This document shows positions 50,320 through 59,997 of a stretch of 64,000 nt of DNA, in pieces; positions within the stretch are counted from its first letter, which is position 1, and each line of letters begins with the position of its first letter. The notes below the pieces were generated by a model, which was not told where the DNA came from, searched no databases, and saw nothing but the letters and a program-made list of their open reading frames with translations. The DNA lies in contig CBDAOB010000005.1 in assembly GCA_965197905.1 (NCBI GenBank), positions 384,001-448,000 of the forward strand, given 5' to 3'. This DNA is from Candidatus Latescibacterota bacterium. Lineage in GTDB: Bacteria; Latescibacterota; UBA2968; UBA8231. Position numbers and translations under genes: made by a program.

Positions 50320-50813
50320 ATGGAAGATCGAACCTACGTGGAAACCTTTGCGGACGGGCCGGGAGGATGGCTCGGATGGGATGCCAACGGGCCACGCCAA
50401 CTGGAATTAGCTGACGGAGCCGCTCTCAGCAGTGGACCTTGGTGGGTGGACAGCAACCATGCCCCGCCGGGCGGCGGTTACCTCCATCTTCTTTATTGCC
50501 TCCATACTCACAGCAGATTCTACGCCATGCGGAACTTCGCCAAGCTCCGTGGGGTCAATCGCTTTATCGCCGGCGGGTTCCCACGCTTGACGTAGCCGCT
50601 CTTGAACCGTTTGCGGGGGATCTCCACCATGTGCGCGCCGAGAATGACTACGAGGTGGACCGTTCGCGTCTTCCAAGCGGTCACGTGCTGCTGCACGAGG
50701 TGCGCATCGAGTTTGCCCGCTACCGCGTCGTTTCACTTCGTTGTTGGCAACTCATGCTAGTATTTATTGAGGAAGCGCTGGGAGGTGCACTGCCAGCACC
50801 TCGCAACCATTAA
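50320..50813 (+). pseudogene. Remnant of a conserved hypothetical gene (N- and C-terminal pieces joined out of frame)
   Basis: YVETFADGPGGW...WWVDSNHAPPGGGYLHLL...NRFIAGGFP, then a frame change at about 50584 into LDV...GDLHHVRAENDYEVDRSRLPSGHVLLHEVRIEF. Confidence 0.55.
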
Positions 50814-50871
50814 TTTATAACCTTATGTTTATACTGTATTTAGGATCCTATTTTGAGCTTCCAAATGCGCT

Positions 50872-50886: not shown

Positions 50887-50932
50887 CTAGGTTAGAGTTG
50901 GCAGTCCACACCCACCCAATCGGAGGTGTTTG

Positions 50933-51679
50933 ATGACTGACGAATCCACCGAAATTCGCGTCGGTGAGAGACCACCCAAATTCTCACTGCCACAGATTGG
51001 CACCGACCGATCTTGCTGCCTCGAAGACTTCGGTGGGCGACCGACAGTCCTGTTCATGTGGGCATCGTGGTGACGCTGCAGATCGCAACTGCCTGGATGG
51101 CAGTCATTCCACCTTCAGCACGGTGACACCAGCAACATCGTGTCTATCGCACAAGATGCCCAAGGCGAGGGCTTCGTAACGCCCTGGCTGGAAAAGGCGA
51201 ACACTACCTTTCCGACGCTCCTCGACCGGCACAATCAGATCGGCAAGGCGTACGGAGTGAAGTACGTGCCCGTTGGCGTTCTTATCGATGCAGACGGCTT
51301 GCTTGTGCGTCCGGTCAGCATGGTGGACATTCGCGATCCCGCCTTTCAGCTCGAGCTGGAGGAGTGGGTCACTAGCGGGATCCTCCCCCCTAGCTGGAAA
51401 GATGGATCGAGCAGAGGGTCGACGTCACTGAGTCCCTCCGAGCAACAGTCGGATGAGCATTTGCAGAATGCAGTCAAACATCTGGACAACGACGATCGGG
51501 AAGCAGCTCTCGAGGAGCTGCAGGAGGCGGTCACTCTGGATCCAGAGAACTGGTTGATTCGCAAGCAAAGGTGGGCTATCGAAAAACCGGAAGCCTTCTA
51601 TAAAGGCGAGGTGGATTACGAGTGGCAAAAATCGCGCATAGAGTCCGAGAACAAACAGGATCGGAGTGATTCCGGATGA
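50933..51679 (+). CDS. Putative selenoprotein: ResA/TlpA-like thioredoxin-fold redoxin with a U-x-C motif and C-terminal TPR-like helices
   Basis: RBS GGAGG, then MTDESTEIRVGERPPKFSLP...LEDFGGRPTVLFMWASW-TGA(51071-51073)-RCRSQLPGWQ, in frame with the 51140 ORF (VSIAQD, FPTLLD, YGVKYVP.GVLIDADG, LDPENWLIRKQ.W). Confidence 0.88.
51088..51104 (+). promoter_or_regulatory. Candidate bacterial SECIS element
   Basis: Perfect 6-bp stem ACTGCC/GGCAGT with loop TGGAT; the loop begins 20 nt after the in-frame TGA and has G at its second position. Confidence 0.7.
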
Positions 51680-54305
51680 TAAGCTCGATGGCTGCTCGGG
51701 CTCGCATCGTTGCCCTGATGTTCCTGCCCTGTCTAATTGGCGCAGCCCCAGTTTGTGCGCGAACGTTCGAGGTTCAACCTGGCGCCAATCAGCTTCAGGA
51801 CATACTGAGCCGCGTTGCCCCCGGCGATTCGATTAAACTGGCAAAAAGTGGCACCTACATCGAGAGCGCCGCTATCCTTTTGCCCGAATTTCCGCTGACG
51901 ATTCTGGCTTCGAACGACTTGGACAGCCGGCCGGTGCTGAAAACGGAAGGGCTGCTGGTCCAATCGGATCTTCGCGTTCAGTCTGTCGTATTCGACGGTG
52001 GGCATACTGCGGAGTATGCCATCCGTTCGCTGGCCCGCGAACCTAGCAGCCTGATCGTCGATATCGTGGAATTCCGAGTTCCGAATCTCACACCAGGGAA
52101 CCGGCGACCCCGCAGCCGATACAGCGTCCTTCACGATGCGGTAAGGCATTGGGATTTGCAGGGAAGGACATGGTCCGCGTTCTCCAGGTGTCAGGCAGCA
52201 CGTTTCACCGTCTCGGCGCGGCGGCCATCGAGGTTGCCCAAGGAGACGCTGCGCTCTCGGTGCGAATTGCGGATGTAACGATCCACGATGCAGCCGACGG
52301 CATCGTGCTCAATGATGTGGAACAGGCGGTAGTCTCCGGAGTCATTCTTTCCGCCATCCGAAACAATGTCGCCGGCGGAACTGAAAAGTTGACTGTTCGC
52401 AATTCGTGTGTTTTCGATTCGAAGAAACACCAGCACATAAGCGGCATCCGTTGTCTGAACTGCCTGGAAGCTAACCCGGAGTTCTACGACCCGAATGATG
52501 ATGACTTTTCTCTGCTTCCAGAGTCTCCCTGTCTTTGGCTCGGCAAGGGTTACACCCCAATTGGTGACCCACGATGGACGGGTGATGCTACCAAGATCGC
52601 GCGGTCCAAACGGGAGCGGGACGTGGCGGTGCGTTGGTCGGGCGGAGTTGGTGTGGGTGTTATTGCGGTATTTCTGGCGTTCTCGGCAATGCGCCGGCAT
52701 TTTCACAAATCGACATCGGCATCGTTGAGAGAAAGGGACGCCCACTATCGCCCTATCCTCGAAAGCAGCACAGATGGCATCGTATTTATCGATCCCAATT
52801 CGCACCAGATTCTCGAAATGAACGACGCTTTCATCGCCAGGCATAATCTGCAGAATTGGCCCGAAAAGGTGCACCAGGTCGAGGCGCTTTTCGACAATGA
52901 TGATGACTTGACCGGCCTCTTCGAGGCAGTGAACGACGACCGACCCTACTCCGCGCATCATCGCCTGAAGCTGGCAGATGGCTCAATCATGGACGCAGAA
53001 ATCGATGTCCATACCCTAGCGTTTCGCGGCAGCAAAACCGTGTGTCTGGTGACCCACGACATAAGTCAATGGAAAAACGAAACGCGGAAGCTGATAGAGG
53101 TAGAAGAGCACCTGCAACATCTGCTGAGTTCGAGCCCGGCTGTCCTCTACAGCCGTCCGTTGGATCAAACCTTCGGGTTCTCCTTCGTATCGGCGAGCGT
53201 AGCAAACCTGTTACAATTGCGAGTGGCCGATCTCTTGTCAGATCCACAGTACTTCAAATGGCGCATCCACATGGAAGACCTGCCAAGGGTGATGGGTGAA
53301 CAGCGACGAGTACTGAATGCGGGCAAACAAGCTCAGGAATACCGCATCCAGAACGGCAGAAGTGAGTACCGTTGGATCCGAGACGAGACCTTCCTGGTCT
53401 ATGACGACGACGGTAGTCCCCTCGAGATCGTTGGCACCATAGTCGATGTCACCTCGCGCGTAGTAGCCGAACAAAGCCGCATGGCAGTTGAGGCTGAGCT
53501 CGAACAGCAGAAGGTGCTGAGTATGCGCGCCGACCGTCTGAGATCACTGGGTGAGATGGCCGCCGGGATCGCTCACGAACTCAATCAGCCCCTAGTGGGG
53601 GTACGTGGATGTGCCGAGCACACCCTCATCGGGATGGAGCGTGGATGGGATATGGATGAGGAAAAACTGGTGGAACGACTGGAGACCATCATCGAGCAGG
53701 TGGACCGTATGGTCCATATCATTGACCACGTAAGGAGGTTTGCACGTCAAGCAGGCGACCCCCAAAAAAAACTCACCCAAGTAAATGATATCGTCACATC
53801 GAGCGTCAGTCTGCTCGGCACTCAGCTGCGACTTAGCGGTGTCGAGTTACGAACGACACTGGGAGTCCATCTTCCCGAGGTGTTTGTGAATCCTTTTTCT
53901 TTGGAAGAGGTTGTGTTGAACCTGGTTGTCAATGCAAGGGATGCTCTGGAAGGTCGGAATGGGGAGCATGATCCCCCGGTTGTTGAGGTAAGGACGGATA
54001 CCGATGAGAGGGGATGGGTGCGGATTGGTGTTGTCCACAATGGCTGTGGCATTCCTGCCGAACTGCAAGACCGCGTCTGGCAGCCTTTCTTCACCACGAA
54101 GGATCCCGATCGTGGTACGGGACTCGGACTTTCGATCTGCCGCACGATCATCGAACAATCCGCCGGTCGGCTTGAGCTCTCTTCTGGGATCGATCGGGGC
54201 ACGACCGTGACGATTATTCTTCCTCCGCCGGAGTTGGCAACGGCCGAAGATCCCACCGGTACAGCTGGTGGTCATGGGGCACTGGAATCAGACCAGCGTC
54301 CCTGA
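51676..54305 (+). CDS. NtrB-type sensor histidine kinase with extracellular right-handed beta-helix, TM and two PAS domains (frameshifted at about 52070-52150)
   Basis: Signal peptide and LQDIL..VAPGDSIKL..GTY (51676 ORF); NPEFYDP..DDFSL...SP...IGDPRW, TM helix, two PAS domains, GEMAAGIAHELNQPL, NLVVNARDA, PFFTTK and GTGLGL (52149 ORF). Confidence 0.8.
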
Positions 54306-54312
54306 AGCCGGT

Positions 54313-57015
54313 TCAGCTAGTTGCCACACTGACGGACCGCTTCAGCGCATCGCTGACGAACTCGAGTAACTGCGCCCGACTGTACGAGCCCTTTTCGAGT
54401 ATGCCCTCCACGCGTTCGTCGAGCCGTTCTCGCTCTCCCGAACTCAGCTGCTGGGCCGTTACCACGACCACAGGGATATCCCGCCAATCTTCGTGCTTTT
54501 GAAGTTTTTCGACAACGTCGAAGCCGTCGAGTTCCGGCATCATCAGATCCAAGAGGATGAGATCGGGCGGTTGCCGGGCAACAGCGTCCATGGCCTCACG
54601 TCCATTCTCCGCCTCAGCCACCTGCCAGCCCTCCTTATCCAGGGTCCGCTTCATCATCGCACGGGTGTTGGCGTCGTCCTCTACGACCAATATGCGACCG
54701 GACGATTCAGGAATCTGTTGGCTCAACGCGGCGATCAAGCGGTCACTGGACACGGGTTTTGCGAGATAATCAGCTGCTCCCAATGCGTATCCTTTGCTGT
54801 GATCGTCGACCATCGTCAGCATGATCACAGGAATATGGGCGAGGTCCTCATCTTTCTTGAGCTCCTGTAGGACAGTCCAGCCATCCATTGTCGGCATGGA
54901 AACATCGAGCGTAATCGCCGATGGCCGCAGCTGTCTCGCCTTCTCCAGTCCTTCGAGTCCGTCCTTGGCTGCGACCGCGGAGAATCCCTCTTTTGTCAAG
55001 TAGCGCATGACAATCTGCCTTGCAGCTTCATCGTCGTCGATAACGAGAATCACCTCGCCTTGTTCGAGGTTTATCTCGTTCTCGTCGTTCTCGGTAGACG
55101 ATGAACTCGAAGAAACGGAACCGGCCTCTGCCGGCAAACGCATCGTGAAGGTAGACCCCTTTTCCGGTTCGCTCTTCAGGAGGATCTCGCCGCCCATCAT
55201 CTGACAAAAGTGCCGGGTGATCGCCAAACCTAGCCCCGTACCCCCGAACTTCCGGGTCGTCGATAGGTCCGCCTGTGCGAAAGCTTGGAAGACATTCGAC
55301 ATCTGCTCTTCCGTCATGCCCACCCCCGTATCAGTGATCTGGAAGACAATCCACTCTCTCTCATTCTCCGACTGACGCTCGACCTTTACGTAAATATTAC
55401 CCCCTGTGGTAAATTTGGCGGCGTTCGAGAGCAGGTTCATCAGGTTCTGCCTCAGCTTCGTCTGATCCGTCACCATCTGACCCACACCATCGGAAATCTC
55501 CAACTCCAAGACATTGTCGCTCTGTTTGACCAGTGGCTCAACTGTTGCCACTACCTCCTCTGCCAAGGCGCCGGCTTCAAATCGTTCGATGTAGAGCTCC
55601 ATTCGCCCGGCCTCGATTTTGGACAAGTCTAGAATATCGTTTATGAGGGAGAGCAAATGCTTGCCGGATCCGTGTATCTTCTCCAGATCCGTCACGAACT
55701 CATCATTTCCTTGGTCCGATGCGTCTTCCTGGAGCATCTCGCTGTAGCCTATGATCGCGTTCAGCGGTGTTCGCAGTTCATGGCTCATATTTGCCAGGAA
55801 CGAACTCTTGGCGCGGCTCGATTGCTCCGCCGCGTCCTTTGCTTCTCGCAGTTCATCTTCCCTTTGCTTGCGCTCTGTCAGATCCTGCGCGACACACACA
55901 TATCCCTGGATTCCACCTTCGTCGTGTTTGAGAGCCGCAGCAACGATGGCGACTGGTATGTGCCGTCCGTGCTTGTCTACGTAAATATCCTCAAGACTGT
56001 GAGTAACTTCATCGCCTGCAAGCTGCTCAATTTCAGACTCAATAAGCCTAGATTCCGGGGCCAGAATCTCCTGAAATGGCCGCTCGATAAGCTCCTCGGG
56101 GTCGAGTCCGAGCAACCTGCTAGTCGTTTGATTCACCATCTTGATGTTGACTTCGGCGTCGAGGACTATGAGAGAATTTCCCATCGACCTAATGATATTA
56201 TCCACGTAATTTCTCGAAACGGTAGTCTCTTTCAGGCTCTTCGTCATGGTTTGAAAAGACTCAACAAGATCGCCGACTTCATCACGACTGTTCGATGGGA
56301 TGTCAAGATCCGTTTCGAGCTGACCCTTTGCGACCCCAGCCATCGCTTCTGACAGCATCCGGATCGGCGACACAATTCTGTTGGTGAGCAGTACGAACAC
56401 AACCGTGAACAAGGCCAAAATCAAGATGCCGACTAGCAATGTGGCTCGGACACGAGATCGAACTTCATCCCCCGTATGCCCCAACTCTACATCCAATGCC
56501 AACTGTCTGTCGCGGATCAAGATTTGAAGTTTAGAATCGAGATCCGTCCTCGACACCGTCGCCGCTAGTTGTGATGTCTCCTCCGTGCTCAGGAATCCAA
56601 GGTCTTCTCCCTCCGCCTCACTCGCCAAAAGCATTTCTGCAAGTTCACGAGCTATGATTTGGTACTGGTCGACGTCCCTTTCAAGGTCCTGCAAATCGGA
56701 CAGCTCTGCTTCAGGTGTCAGCGCCATCAAGCGTCTCAAGTGTTCGACAAGGAGGGATTTCTCGCCATCGCTGGCGGTAAGGAGTGCGGGTTCGCCGATT
56801 ACGACGGCGTCTTCTATGAGTCGCGCCATGACATCGAATCTCGCTTCCAAGGCACTCGCGTGAGTAAACCGCGGCACCGATTCCTCTTTCACCTGCTCGA
56901 GGCGTGCAGGCACTATGTTGGAGGTTTGGAAATTCGTGTACATGATGAGCCCGACTGCAAGTGCAGCTCCAACCAGCACGAAGCCGAATTTTGTCCTGAG
57001 GGAAAACTGCGCCAT
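54313..57015 (-). CDS. Hybrid sensor histidine kinase (periplasmic domain-HAMP-PAS-HisKA-HATPase-REC-REC)
   Basis: Two TM helices, HAMP (PI..LS...VAKG...DEVG.L...F..M), [22 protein letters not shown] and two receiver domains (LDVSMP, LDLMMP). Confidence 0.95.
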   Translation of the reverse strand: MAQFSLRTKFGFVLVGAALAVGLIMYTNFQTSNIVPARLEQVKEESVPRFTHASALEARFDVMARLIEDAVVIGEPALLTASDGEKSLLVEHLRRLMALTPEAELSDLQDLERDVDQYQIIARELAEMLLASEAEGEDLGFLSTEETSQLAATVSRTDLDSKLQILIRDRQLALDVELGHTGDEVRSRVRATLLVGILILALFTVVFVLLTNRIVSPIRMLSEAMAGVAKGQLETDLDIPSNSRDEVGDLVESFQTMTKSLKETTVSRNYVDNIIRSMGNSLIVLDAEVNIKMVNQTTSRLLGLDPEELIERPFQEILAPESRLIESEIEQLAGDEVTHSLEDIYVDKHGRHIPVAIVAAALKHDEGGIQGYVCVAQDLTERKQREDELREAKDAAEQSSRAKSSFLANMSHELRTPLNAIIGYSEMLQEDASDQGNDEFVTDLEKIHGSGKHLLSLINDILDLSKIEAGRMELYIERFEAGALAEEVVATVEPLVKQSDNVLELEISDGVGQMVTDQTKLRQNLMNLLSNAAKFTTGGNIYVKVERQSENEREWIVFQITDTGVGMTEEQMSNVFQAFAQADLSTTRKFGGTGLGLAITRHFCQMMGGEILLKSEPEKGSTFTMRLPAEAGSVSSSSSSTENDENEINLEQGEVILVIDDDEAARQIVMRYLTKEGFSAVAAKDGLEGLEKARQLRPSAITLDVSMPTMDGWTVLQELKKDEDLAHIPVIMLTMVDDHSKGYALGAADYLAKPVSSDRLIAALSQQIPESSGRILVVEDDANTRAMMKRTLDKEGWQVAEAENGREAMDAVARQPPDLILLDLMMPELDGFDVVEKLQKHEDWRDIPVVVVTAQQLSSGERERLDERVEGILEKGSYSRAQLLEFVSDALKRSVSVATS

Positions 57016-57018
57016 GAT

Positions 57019-57471
57019 CTAATCGGTGATTTTTACGACTCTAATTTGGTCGTCCTGCTGGCTCAGTCCCTCAACGACACCGATGGCGCCGGGATGACGG
57101 CCCGCGAACGCCATGACCTCCTTCGCCGTTGGCATTGTCCTGGGAACAGTGCCACCGCCGGAAAACAGCCGGCGCTTCCAGTAAGCCCGATACTGGCTGA
57201 GCGACTTTCCCAGAACCGCACGGACAAACTCCTGCGTCACCGGACCCGTACTTGACTGAAGCGCAGGTATGATCTTCTTGCCGGAAGCCCACGTGGACTT
57301 TCTCCCCAGAAAGATGGCCGCCAGTTCTGAGCGTGTGATTTCACGCACCTCATTCTCGGCGTTAATGACGATTGTCCCCGTGAAAGCTGTCGGTCCAGCT
57401 GCATGCCCGGTTGTGGGGAGCACCATGAAAACCGCGCAACAGAGCGTTAGAAGACAACAGTATTTGTTCAT
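57019..57471 (-). CDS. Small periplasmic protein resembling phosphate-ABC substrate-binding-like domains
   Basis: Signal peptide; VINAEN....ITRSEL..IFLGRK..W..G, Y..YW...LFSG.G..P and V..F...HPGAIG.V. Confidence 0.82.
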   Translation of the reverse strand: MNKYCCLLTLCCAVFMVLPTTGHAAGPTAFTGTIVINAENEVREITRSELAAIFLGRKSTWASGKKIIPALQSSTGPVTQEFVRAVLGKSLSQYRAYWKRRLFSGGGTVPRTMPTAKEVMAFAGRHPGAIGVVEGLSQQDDQIRVVKITD

Positions 57472-57484
57472 CAGTTCACTATCC

Positions 57485-58549
57485 CTAAAACCCGAGTACA
57501 GCGGCGGCTTTTATCTCGTGGTAATCACGGCCTGGTAGGTCGCGGAGGCCAGCGCTGTTGGCTGCGCCCTTCAGGTAGTTCTCCTCCAGCTTCAGGATCA
57601 GACCCCCGCTTGTCTCGATATTAACTCCGAATATAACCCCGATTCCATGATTGCTTCCCGAACTGAGATTCGAGTCCACGAAATCCAATCTCAGGTATGG
57701 CGTAAAACCGGTGGAGATCTGGTAGGAAGGCTGGACGAACCACCCCAGCTGTCTCACCACGGCGTCGGAATCGGGTTTCCTGAAACCCAGCACTACCTCT
57801 GCTACTATTCGAAAAGCTTCGCGATCGTACTCTATCTCGATTCCTTCGCTCATTGTGTAGTCGTAGTCTGGCCCCGAGAGCTTGTCGAAATAAAAAGAGC
57901 CTCCCAGGTGGACTGTCGGTGACCGATCGTACCCAATTCGCGCGGTGACCGATTTCGCTTTGTTGTTATCCTCTTCAAACGGATTCGTCTCTTCTTGCTC
58001 GCCGTTTGCGATCAAAACATCGTAGTCGAGGTAGCCATCCCTGAGCACAACGTCGCCGTGAAGGCCTATGCCGGTACCCCATCTTGGAAAGAAACGGAAG
58101 GCGTCCTTGACGATGCGTTCGGTTTTGTTGGTACCAGCGGCCTCTTTGACTGATAGGAAGGCAGGTTTTGCCGTGTGTATTTCGTTGAAAATGCCGAAAG
58201 GTGTAAACATTTTTCCAAAGCGCAACTTGACGAGATCCGATACCGCATATTCTACAAATCCGTATTCGAGCGCCATATTGCCGCGGTTATCCTCACTCGC
58301 GCCCCCATGTTCCCATGTGACGTCCGTGGCAGCTCGTATCCTGTCGTCTACTTGGATGTTGAAGACCAAGTCGAAGAGGTCCGCATCGAAAGAAAAATTT
58401 GGATCGCCAGGCCCGTCTTCTGCATTTCCGAGTTGCTTTTCGAATTCAAAGCTCGTGTACCCATTTAGTGTGATCATGTCTCTGTCTATGGCCGTCGCCG
58501 GGACGTAGAGAAGAAGCGTGCATCCGAATACGATTTTGAGCATCCTCAT
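57485..58549 (-). CDS. Outer-membrane beta-barrel protein (porin-like)
   Basis: Signal peptide; EHG, LEYGFVEY, LRFGK..TPFG.FNE, DNNKAK...RIG, amphipathic strands and C-terminal Phe. Confidence 0.85.
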   Translation of the reverse strand: MRMLKIVFGCTLLLYVPATAIDRDMITLNGYTSFEFEKQLGNAEDGPGDPNFSFDADLFDLVFNIQVDDRIRAATDVTWEHGGASEDNRGNMALEYGFVEYAVSDLVKLRFGKMFTPFGIFNEIHTAKPAFLSVKEAAGTNKTERIVKDAFRFFPRWGTGIGLHGDVVLRDGYLDYDVLIANGEQEETNPFEEDNNKAKSVTARIGYDRSPTVHLGGSFYFDKLSGPDYDYTMSEGIEIEYDREAFRIVAEVVLGFRKPDSDAVVRQLGWFVQPSYQISTGFTPYLRLDFVDSNLSSGSNHGIGVIFGVNIETSGGLILKLEENYLKGAANSAGLRDLPGRDYHEIKAAAVLGF

Positions 58550-58569
58550 TCCAAATCTCTCTTTACCAA

Positions 58570-59997
58570 TTGGGCGCCAGTACCTTTCTGACAAAGGTCT
58601 ACCACTGGAACGGTGGTTATCGCCTGCATTATCGGTCCGGCGATCGTCACCTCATCGCCGAAAGCAAAGACGGTTTTAATTGGACGAAGCCGGAATTCGG
58701 CGCGGTGGAATTCGAGGGCTCGACCAAGAACAACATCATCGCAGGCAGTGGCGAACACTACTTCGAGGATTCTTCGGCGCCTCCCGAAGAGCGTTTCAAG
58801 CTCATCGGCATGAAAGGTGGCCTTTACGACGCGGAGCGGAACAGCGATGGCAATTTTGTCCCGTACGAAGGCACTAGCGAGAAAGCCAAGGCCCTGATCG
58901 CCGAAGGGGGCGACGCTGGAGCGGTGGACACCTTCGACTTGCAGGAATCACCGGCGACGCGCATGACCTTTCGCGACAAGTGGGTGCAGCTGAAGGGATT
59001 TCTGGTGGGCAGCGTTTCCGCCGATGGCATCCATTTCAAGGAGCTGGAAAAATCGTTTCTGCCGGAGTGGGTGGATGGCGACAACCTCATCAGCTACGAC
59101 GAGGAGCTGGGAAAATACGTTGGTTACCTGCGTTTCCACCTGGCGGGCCGGCGCTGTGTCGGCATTTCCTACAGCGATGATTTCCGTACTTTCACGCCCG
59201 AGCAGGTGGTCCTGCAGATCGATTCCGCCGATCCGCCGGAAGATTCATTCTACAACCACAGCTATACACGTTACCCCGGGCGCAGCGATCTGCACGCCAT
59301 GTTCGTCTCCATCTTTCATCAGGACACCGGTTTGATCGACATTCAGCTGGCGGTCAGCCACGACGGTCTACAATGGGATCGCCCCAACCGGATCAAGCCG
59401 ATCATCCCCAACGGCCCCGACGGCAGTCCCGACTCCGGTTGCATCTACGTGGCCCCGGATCTGATCGAGCTGCCGGAGGGCCGATACGCCATTGCCTACT
59501 CGGGCCGGCTCAAAAGGCATATTGAAGGGGTTGGGGAAGACACGGACGATATCTATGAACAGGGCATCATCCGTTACGCCACCTGGGAGCGGGACCGGCT
59601 GGTTGGGATCAGGGCTAGGCAGCTGGGCAGCTTTACCTTGCGCCAAGACCGCTATCGGCGACCAGAGGATTGCCCCGACAGCATTGAGGTGCCACCGTTC
59701 GATCGTTTTCCTCCGGTGGCCGACCCGAACGAACCTCCAGGGCAGCTGCGAATAAACTACCGCTGCGAGATGGGAGGCTGGATACGGGCCGAGCTGATCC
59801 CGGTGATCGGACCCATGACCCATCCCCAGATCGATGCGCTGGAAGGCTACGGTTTCGCTGATTGCCACACCATGGATGGAGATGAGATCGACCAGGTGGT
59901 CACCTGGAGAGGCAAGGATAATATCGCCTGCCTGTCGGACACCATGGCGGTTCGAATCGAGATGTACCGCACTACGCTGTTTTCATTTTCTCTTTGA
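58570..59997 (+). CDS. Five-bladed beta-propeller glycoside-hydrolase-like protein (GH32/GH130-like), apparently 5'-truncated
   Basis: AESKDGFNWTKP..G.VEF.GS.KNN, SADGIHF, YD...KYVGYLR, SDDF and IQLAVSHDG..W. No RBS, in-frame stop at 58537, and only 20 bp from the divergent porin start. Confidence 0.72.
   Translation: MGASTFLTKVYHWNGGYRLHYRSGDRHLIAESKDGFNWTKPEFGAVEFEGSTKNNIIAGSGEHYFEDSSAPPEERFKLIGMKGGLYDAERNSDGNFVPYEGTSEKAKALIAEGGDAGAVDTFDLQESPATRMTFRDKWVQLKGFLVGSVSADGIHFKELEKSFLPEWVDGDNLISYDEELGKYVGYLRFHLAGRRCVGISYSDDFRTFTPEQVVLQIDSADPPEDSFYNHSYTRYPGRSDLHAMFVSIFHQDTGLIDIQLAVSHDGLQWDRPNRIKPIIPNGPDGSPDSGCIYVAPDLIELPEGRYAIAYSGRLKRHIEGVGEDTDDIYEQGIIRYATWERDRLVGIRARQLGSFTLRQDRYRRPEDCPDSIEVPPFDRFPPVADPNEPPGQLRINYRCEMGGWIRAELIPVIGPMTHPQIDALEGYGFADCHTMDGDEIDQVVTWRGKDNIACLSDTMAVRIEMYRTTLFSFSL

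What the first reader, a model, noticed from the sequence alone, without database searches (positions are those of the whole stretch)
50933..51679. Hidden selenoprotein: redoxin with WASW-Sec-Arg-Cys active site plus TPR-like tail
Seen: an RBS and ATG open a redoxin-type N-terminus (VG...P.FSLP...L.DF.G.P.VL..WASW) that meets TGA exactly where ResA/TlpA proteins have the first catalytic Cys, then continues in frame into the ORF the track starts at 51140. Established: UGA is recoded as selenocysteine when a SECIS follows, and ResA-like WAxxUGC selenoproteins exist. Inference: this is a 248-aa selenoprotein with a shortened U-x-C motif (Arg in the middle position) that gene callers will truncate.
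Basis: partly seen in the sequence, partly recalled or inferred. Interest (0 to 1): 0.85.

Follow-up and report, generated by a model that had tools for sequence, protein, structure and literature searches.

The report
Hidden selenoprotein redoxin, known family variant
An apparent stop codon inside this gene almost certainly encodes selenocysteine at the active site of a thioredoxin-like redox protein; the call is sound, but the family was catalogued in 2008, so this is a minor variant rather than a discovery.

Summary
- The genome has selA, selB, selD and tRNA-Sec.
- 86 of 86 distinct related genes keep TGA in this column.
- A hairpin 20 nt downstream fits the bacterial SECIS model; one stem pair covaries at synonymous sites (C-G 57, U-A 27, U-G 2).
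- More distant database proteins have C-x-C here.

It is not new. A clear orthologue by eye (WASWUGCRGQLPGWQ) is in the 2008 'Prx-like UGC-containing' dataset (PMC2398784), and this scan found the UGC family before on other DNA. It misses the NCBIfam NF041054 cut-off (110 vs 300 bits).

Differences here: Arg instead of Gly (11 of 86 genes, two or more lineages) and no ~100-aa N-terminal domain. Among relatives a second Cys pair sits in that domain (39) or in a C-terminal CGPxGC tail (11), never both; this protein has neither. Likely function: cytoplasmic thiol-disulfide oxidoreductase (inferred, untested).

The parts
50922..50927 (+). Shine-Dalgarno-like GGAGGT, 5 nt before the ATG
   Evidence: sequence
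50933..51679 (+). Full CDS, 248 aa with Sec47; no signal peptide apparent by inspection
   Evidence: the nearest relatives L021, L022, L051 have an ATG 45-48 codons before the TGA
50960..51376 (+). TlpA/ResA-like thioredoxin-fold domain (aa 10-148), with invariant Pro113 aligned to the cis-Pro loop
   Evidence: Pfam PF00578/PF08534; model pLDDT 91.5; Foldseek top hits 3gl3, 3kcm, 4nmu, ResA
51071..51073 (+). In-frame TGA, predicted selenocysteine 47 (position of the first Cys of CxxC)
   Evidence: TGA in 86 of 86 distinct homologous genes
51074..51079 (+). Arg48 (CGC) and Cys49 (TGC) of the U-x-C motif
   Evidence: Cys in 86 of 86; middle residue G 66, R 11, A 8, Q 1
51088..51104 (+). Bacterial SECIS candidate: 6-bp stem, 5-nt loop (51094-98) with G at its second position, 20 nt after the UGA, -9.0 kcal/mol
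   Evidence: model constraints from PMC13188914
51140..51142 (+). GTG at which a standard ORF caller starts the truncated 179-aa product
   Evidence: database entry P0002 has 179 aa
51434..51673 (+). C-terminal helical, TPR-like domain with conserved DPxNWLIRKQxWAIExPxxFYxGxVDYxWQ

Best explanation
One gene encodes a 248-aa cytoplasmic selenoprotein. (1) Recoding, strongly supported by comparison but not shown experimentally: SelB binds the G-loop hairpin 20 nt downstream and delivers Sec-tRNA(Sec) to UGA 51071-73. (2) Fold, predicted: a TlpA/ResA-type thioredoxin domain with Sec47 at the start of the active-site helix and Cys49 two residues on, followed by a TPR-like helical domain. (3) Chemistry, inferred from the fold and from general knowledge: the Sec47 selenolate attacks a disulfide on a partner protein or a low-molecular-weight mixed disulfide, and Cys49 resolves the intermediate to a strained selenenylsulfide. 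So it works as a thiol-disulfide reductase or isomerase, with the helical tail probably holding the client. (4) Recycling, inferred: many relatives carry a tethered second Cys pair, this one does not, so it should depend on an outside reductant (TrxR/Trx or a small thiol). It is a short, Arg-substituted offshoot of the known UGC-containing Prx-like/TlpA-like selenoproteins. Odds: about 0.97 for Sec, about 0.6 for thiol-disulfide exchange as the activity.
For: Machinery: selA 471.6 bits, tRNA-Sec with TCA anticodon, selB 330 bits, selD with its own TGA, and three more UxxC redoxins in this genome. Codon: 20 of 20 full-length matches in 41 related genomes and 80 of 80 kept loci across several phyla have TGA; 86 distinct genes after removing 14 duplicates. 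selA is found in 19 of those 20 genomes; the exception, G038 (91% complete), has selD and tRNA-Sec beside the gene. SECIS: the Leu codon at +6 is CTG or TTG in 86 of 86, against 718 of 1362 Leu codons elsewhere in these genes. Its first base pairs with the Gln +10 third base in 86 of 86. On 16 distinct rows 97.9% of cells pair and 0 of 500 shuffles reach that. The window passes a simple bSECIS test that 52 of 1500 random TGA triplets pass. Selection: pN is below pS upstream of the TGA in 10 of 10 chosen pairs, and pS is lower in codons +1..+22 than further down in 9 of 10. Linkage: tRNA-Sec lies in 23 and selD in 18 of 80 loci. Fold.
Against: No protein-level or RNA evidence. The review lists the family under 'Predicted with high confidence', not 'Experimentally verified' (PMC13188914). 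Only 49 of 86 family genes pass my strict bSECIS test, and the window hairpin alone is not more stable than shuffles (z -0.55 to -0.95, and +0.39 for the 100-nt stretch). One genome, G044 (locus L123), has the TGA gene but no selA, no selB over cut-off and no tRNA-Sec match (150 of 538 tRNA candidates scored). The loci were retrieved partly with the QLPGWQ peptide, so conservation of that peptide is built in, and kin are not independent. The codon behind the C-x-C database proteins was not seen. Neighbouring genes are not conserved, so no substrate is indicated.
Confidence: 0.9

Rival explanations
1. It is a selenoprotein, but works as a peroxidase (Prx/GPx-like): Sec47 is oxidised by a peroxide and Cys49 resolves it.
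For: Best Pfam hit is AhpC-TSA; the 2008 paper called the family 'Prx-like'; peroxiredoxin 2 appears among fold matches from rank 43.
Against: Top fold and sequence matches are TlpA/ResA/DsbE thiol-disulfide oxidoreductases. The site reads WASW-U-x-C with a cis-Pro-aligned Pro113; it lacks the PxxxTxxU motif that the review gives for Sec peroxiredoxins. The 2026 review names the family TlpA disulfide reductase.
Confidence: 0.2
2. The U-x-C pair binds a soft metal or metalloid (Hg, Cd, As, Cu) and the protein is a sensor or chaperone, not a catalyst.
For: Close-set Se/S donors suit soft metals (general knowledge). Some database homologues have lost both Cys yet keep the fold (SGS, DVS, SES), so a non-redox role exists in the wider group.
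Against: The site sits exactly where thioredoxin-fold catalysts have theirs; no metal-resistance genes recur among the 40 largest neighbour clusters.
Confidence: 0.12
3. TGA is a true stop, a sequencing error or a pseudogenising mutation; the products are a 46-aa peptide and a 179-aa protein from GTG 51140.
For: Databases hold exactly such pieces. G044 keeps a TGA copy without detectable selA, selB or tRNA-Sec.
Against: Same codon in 86 of 86 genes, never TAA or TAG; purifying selection on both sides; covarying hairpin; the split would cut the thioredoxin fold at its active site; contigs of two studies agree.
Confidence: 0.02
4. UGA is read as Trp, Gly or Cys through an alternative genetic code or a suppressor.
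For: W flanks the site, and such codes exist (general knowledge).
Against: The gene itself ends at a TGA, as do 14 of the 20 orthologues; the only TCA-anticodon tRNA that ARAGORN finds is tRNA-Sec; homologues have Cys in this column.
Confidence: 0.01

Closest known systems
[quoted passage not shown]
   Same: pfam00578 domain, Sec at the first-Cys position, U-x-C spacing, helical tail. Dataset S1 entry JCVI_READ_1095901167516 matches the consensus of alignment A1 by eye along its length, in the active site and in the DPENWLIRKQLWAIE tail. The window gene nests among UGC genes in the tree.
   Different: Middle residue Arg: WURC, URCR, WUAC and WUQC occur 0 times in Dataset S1. The N-terminal domain with its Cys pair is absent.
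NCBIfam NF041054 WAxxUGC_long, 'ResA-like WAxxUGC motif-containing protein'
   Same: Best NCBIfam hit, E 1e-31, over the redoxin domain; long relatives also match from model position about 25.
   Different: 110.5 bits against a cut-off of 300; 13 of 13 relatives scanned also fall short (115.7-163.7 bits). This clade is a sister group that the model does not name.
TlpA/ResA/DsbE (CcmG) thiol-disulfide oxidoreductases, e.g. B. subtilis ResA, PDB 3gl3, 3kcm
   Same: Fold (TM 0.78-0.87 by target length for the top 10), W-A-x-W before the nucleophile, cis-Pro loop.
   Different: U-x-C instead of C-x-x-C, no membrane anchor apparent, extra helical domain.
FrnE (DsbA family) of Deinococcus radiodurans
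   Same: Analogy for the relatives only: a C-terminal CXXXXC tail proposed to regenerate the active site, and missing in some homologues (PMC8945050, passages). 11 of 86 family genes end in CGP[DEA]GC.
   Different: Different thioredoxin subfamily with a CXXC site and no Sec; the window protein has no such tail.

Membership tests
Bacterial selenoprotein gene | In-frame UGA aligned to a Cys of homologues | tested here: met
   the codons of the database C-x-C proteins were not seen
Bacterial selenoprotein gene | bSECIS: 3-9 nt loop, 4-16 bp stem, G in first two loop positions, 16-37 nt spacing, MFE <= -7.5 | tested here: met
   loop 5, stem 6, G second, spacing 20, -9.0 kcal/mol; constraints; covariation
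Bacterial selenoprotein gene | selA, selB, selC, selD in the genome | tested here: met
Bacterial selenoprotein gene | Sec shown in the protein | not testable with these tools
   needs 75Se labelling or mass spectrometry
Prx-like (UGC-containing) / UGC-containing TlpA family | pfam00578 (AhpC-TSA) domain | tested here: met
   47.3 bits, cut-off 26
Prx-like (UGC-containing) / UGC-containing TlpA family | Literal U-G-C motif | tested here: not met
   U-R-C; hence filed as a variant
Prx-like (UGC-containing) / UGC-containing TlpA family | Descent from UGC-bearing members, with U-x-C spacing | tested here: met
   nested in a 43-row clade (support 99) in which 41 rows are UGC (quick tree); orthologue by eye in Dataset S1
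Prx-like (UGC-containing) / UGC-containing TlpA family | Similarity to the reviews' representatives MDE0950781.1 and MBL6689828.1 | not tested
   sequences not fetched
NCBIfam NF041054 (WAxxUGC_long) | Score >= 300 bits | tested here: not met
   110.5 bits
NCBIfam NF041054 (WAxxUGC_long) | About 354-aa architecture with N-terminal domain | tested here: not met
   248 aa; best stretch covers model positions 85-204
ResA / TlpA equivalogs | CxxC motif and curated cut-offs | tested here: not met
   U-x-C; 53.5 vs 170 bits (ResA), 24.9 vs 230 (TlpA)
Peroxiredoxins | PxxxTxxC/U peroxidatic motif | tested here: not met
   site reads VLFMWASWURC; motif

The most novel reading that the evidence does not exclude
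This sub-clade of U-x-C selenoenzymes uses a tethered, FrnE-like Cys-pair relay to recycle a strained selenenylsulfide, and the relay has changed position. It lies in a beta-hairpin of the N-terminal domain in 39 of 86 genes and in a C-terminal CGPxGC tail in 11, never in both. Short forms like this one have shed it and rely on a separate reductant, with Gly-to-Arg changes in several lineages tuning the site. Cultured aerobic Bacillaceae carry the U-R-C form and selA, so a family listed only as predicted could be tested directly.
Probability: 0.3. Interest if true: 0.5.

Novelty: new variant of a known kind. Interest (0 to 1): 0.25.

Why it matters
Mainly an annotation fix. A conserved selenoprotein clade in Latescibacterota, Poribacteria, Chloroflexota, Planctomycetota and Bacillota is split by gene callers and falls under the NCBIfam cut-off, so it is invisible in protein databases. 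The family's motif should read U-x-C, not U-G-C. The covarying in-frame hairpin is a clean natural example of a bacterial SECIS. The family is listed only as predicted; cultured Bacillaceae members and the movable second Cys pair give a direct way to test how a U-x-C site turns over.

Tried and rejected
- No RNA holder listed; no statement on expression.
- Hairpin stability against shuffles is not significant on its own; the case rests on position and covariation.
- The word-index protein search gave no full-length or Cys homologue; the profile search did.
- Function from neighbours: none found beyond linkage to selD and tRNA-Sec in one Latescibacterota branch; the window's own neighbours differ from those at L022 and L050 in part.
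- Promoter scan: one weak site, at chance level (1 found, 0.5 expected); no terminator.
- Arg as a unique or activity-killing change: rejected; it recurs in 11 of 86 genes, in the window's pair and again in Bacillota and Chloroflexota, and C-R-C occurs in P0081 and P0177.
- Cys28-Cys29 as a relay: not conserved.
- A fold search of the long-form model had not finished when I stopped; the N-terminal domain is labelled only by weak Cu_amine_oxidN1 hits below cut-off.
- The careful tree did not finish; the quick tree was used. P0177 was left out because my pattern missed its site.
- Paper searches with no hit: 'WAxxUGC'; selenoprotein + 'UxC motif' + bacterial; 'CGC motif' + bacilliredoxin + 'thioredoxin fold'. 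PMC4354306 and PMC1794560 passages gave nothing usable.
- No complex prediction was run; no partner is claimed.

Full report
Observation. The window has GGAGGT at 50922-27, ATG at 50933, an in-frame TGA at 51071-73 after VLFMWASW, then RCRSQLPGW and an open frame to TGA 51677-79. A plain ORF caller starts at GTG 51140. Read through, the 248-aa protein scores over the Pfam cut-offs for AhpC-TSA and Redoxin across the TGA. Alignment to the best solved-structure match puts the TGA on the first Cys of CxxC, with one spacer residue missing. Contigs of run X1 (identical, possibly the source) and run X2 (another study, two differences, both upstream of the gene) carry the same codon. For X5 and X8 no change is listed there, but 19 rows of that table were hidden.

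Sec machinery. The genome (91% complete) has selA, selB, a tRNA-Sec with TCA anticodon and a selD that itself reads GUAAK. Three other redoxin-like genes have UxxC sites. Relatives with named records are mostly Candidatus Latescibacterota.

Conservation. Of 41 related genomes, 20 (own included) have a full-length match at 44% identity or more, and all 20 have TGA in this column. Two more have only C-terminal pieces. A scan of 185,579 species genomes confirmed 136 relatives and kept the best 80; 56 were not seen. All 80 have TGA, although one of the two search patterns was built for a Cys codon. After removing 14 duplicates there are 86 distinct genes: UGC 66, URC 11, UAC 8, UQC 1. selA was found in 19 of the 20 genomes. 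Four of the six genomes without selA have no match to the protein at all, one has a fragment, and one (G038) has selD and tRNA-Sec next to the gene. In 10 hand-picked, non-independent pairs, pN is below pS upstream of the TGA in all 10. A profile search over 1.84 billion representatives returned among its best 150: 26 proteins with C-x-C, 23 that stop at the W before the codon, 9 with CxxC, and 92 with no site under my pattern. Several C-x-C proteins share the helical tail. Their codons were not seen, so some could be annotated Sec shown as C.

SECIS. Bases 51088-51104 form a 6-bp stem with a 5-nt loop, G second, 20 nt after the UGA, -9.0 kcal/mol. This meets all four constraints given in PMC13188914 (passages). 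52 of 1500 random TGA triplets pass my version of the test; 49 of 86 family genes do. The hairpin is not unusually stable against shuffles. The stronger evidence is covariation: the Leu +6 codon is only CTG or TTG (86 of 86, against 718 of 1362 elsewhere), and its first base pairs with the Gln +10 wobble base as C-G 57, U-A 27, U-G 2, never C-A. On 16 distinct rows, 0 of 500 shuffles reach the observed pairing or covariation score; kinship inflates such counts. tRNA-Sec lies within the fetched flanks in 23 and selD in 18 of 80 loci, nearly all in one branch.

Structure and architecture. The model (Sec as Cys; pLDDT 91.5, pTM 0.88) has a thioredoxin fold with the site at the start of helix 48-63, then a helical domain at 168-247. 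Its top matches are TlpA/ResA/DsbE proteins. Relatives come in several forms: long ones with a ~100-aa N-terminal domain, ones with a hydrophobic signal-like N-terminus, and short ones like this. In the quick tree the four short forms L051, L021, L020 (this gene) and L022 group together (support 99) inside long UGC forms, so the domain was probably lost; I ran no one-clade test. Arg appears in the pair L020/L022 (support 93) and, far off in the tree, in Bacillota and Chloroflexota. A second Cys pair is found in the N-terminal domain in 39 genes, in a C-terminal CGP[DEA]GC tail in 11, in neither in 36 and in both in 0. Some of the 36 are long forms that my pattern missed or that are cut by contig ends. 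The 11 tails fall in one part of the tree, so the exclusivity rests on few events. In the long-form model the two Cys lie on adjacent strands of a hairpin (C51, C56). PMC8945050 (passages) describes a C-terminal CXXXXC in FrnE that is proposed to regenerate the active site and is missing in some homologues; that is the analogy for a relay.

Mechanism. Shown by sequence and comparison: one gene, conserved UGA, fitting hairpin, machinery present. Predicted: fold. Inferred: Sec47 is the nucleophile, Cys49 resolves to a strained selenenylsulfide, the helical tail binds a client, and an outside reductant recycles this short form. That selenolates are stronger nucleophiles than thiolates, and that C-x-C sites (engineered CGC thioredoxin, bacilliredoxins) are strained and favour isomerase or de-thiolation chemistry, is recalled and comes from no call (searches found no support in the library). 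Peroxidase and metal-binding roles remain open but are less likely.

Comparison with what is known. PMC2398784 (passages; supplement file 3 hits; part 35 of 59) lists 'Prx-like (UGC-containing)', pfam00578, 46 sequences. Its dataset holds two reads with WASWUGCRGQLPGWQS and the same C-terminal motif as this clade. The family heading stands in part 34 and no heading precedes these entries in part 35; I compared them by eye and did not read part 34 whole. PMC9312934 (passages) and PMC13188914 (passages) carry the family on, the latter under 'Predicted with high confidence'. NCBIfam NF041054 is the best model but is missed by this protein and by 13 of 13 relatives. Non-Gly middle residues were not found in Dataset S1 or in my paper searches. 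Supplements of the two reviews and their representative sequences were not seen and could hold such forms. Three earlier notes of this scan reached the same family call on other genomes; I saw them after reading the paper, and a sequence look-up found no look-alike.

Verdict. A real and well-supported hidden selenoprotein gene, and a minor variant (U-R-C, short form) of a known, still only predicted family. Interest 0.25.

Noticed in passing
window 51676-54305 (+): The PAS histidine kinase gene that overlaps the stop codon (ATGA) is split by a frame change: ORF 51676-52278 and ORF 52149-54305 match one continuous frame in relative L022. Assembly error or pseudogene; the laid contigs stopped at 52000.
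   Followed up: partly
window 50320-50820 (+): Two overlapping short ORFs (50320-50595, 50439-50813) upstream; no Pfam hit for the first and no paralogue in the genome. The matching region at L050 looks degraded too. Probably a gene remnant.
   Followed up: partly
window 51676-58594: Two histidine kinases, a small periplasmic-binding-like protein and a porin-like gene lie between this gene and the 58570 gene; at L050 those two genes are directly adjacent, which suggests an insertion or loss of about 7 kb.
   Followed up: partly
L123 (genome handle G044, record titled Alicyclobacillus sp. ALC3, complete genome): Has the TGA U-R-C gene and a selD with a TGA, but no selA, no selB over cut-off and no tRNA-Sec match. 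Recent loss of the machinery, or genes on DNA not held.
   Followed up: partly
L104, L120, L121, L125, L126 (Bacillaceae and kin): Cultured aerobic bacilli carry the U-R-C form with a C-terminal CGP[DE]GC tail; selA was found in the genomes of L104, L120, L121, L126, selB and tRNA-Sec in that of L125.
   Followed up: partly
L125, two codons before the Sec codon's WSSW context (position -4): A second TGA replaces the conserved Trp codon four positions before Sec: a nonsense change or a sequencing error in that record.
   Followed up: no
L016, L017, L018 (G000:C4:1271299-1271730, C3:435939-436340, C5:101000-101410): Three more hidden UxxC redoxin selenoprotein genes in this genome (UPPC, UDFC, UPYC), each with a downstream hairpin.
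   Followed up: partly
P0049, P0056, P0100, P0124, P0144: Homologues with the same two-domain layout that have lost both active-site Cys; possible non-catalytic forms.
   Followed up: no
window 51023-51116: Several other contigs in the same runs match only the active-site and hairpin stretch, so other organisms there carry related genes.
   Followed up: no
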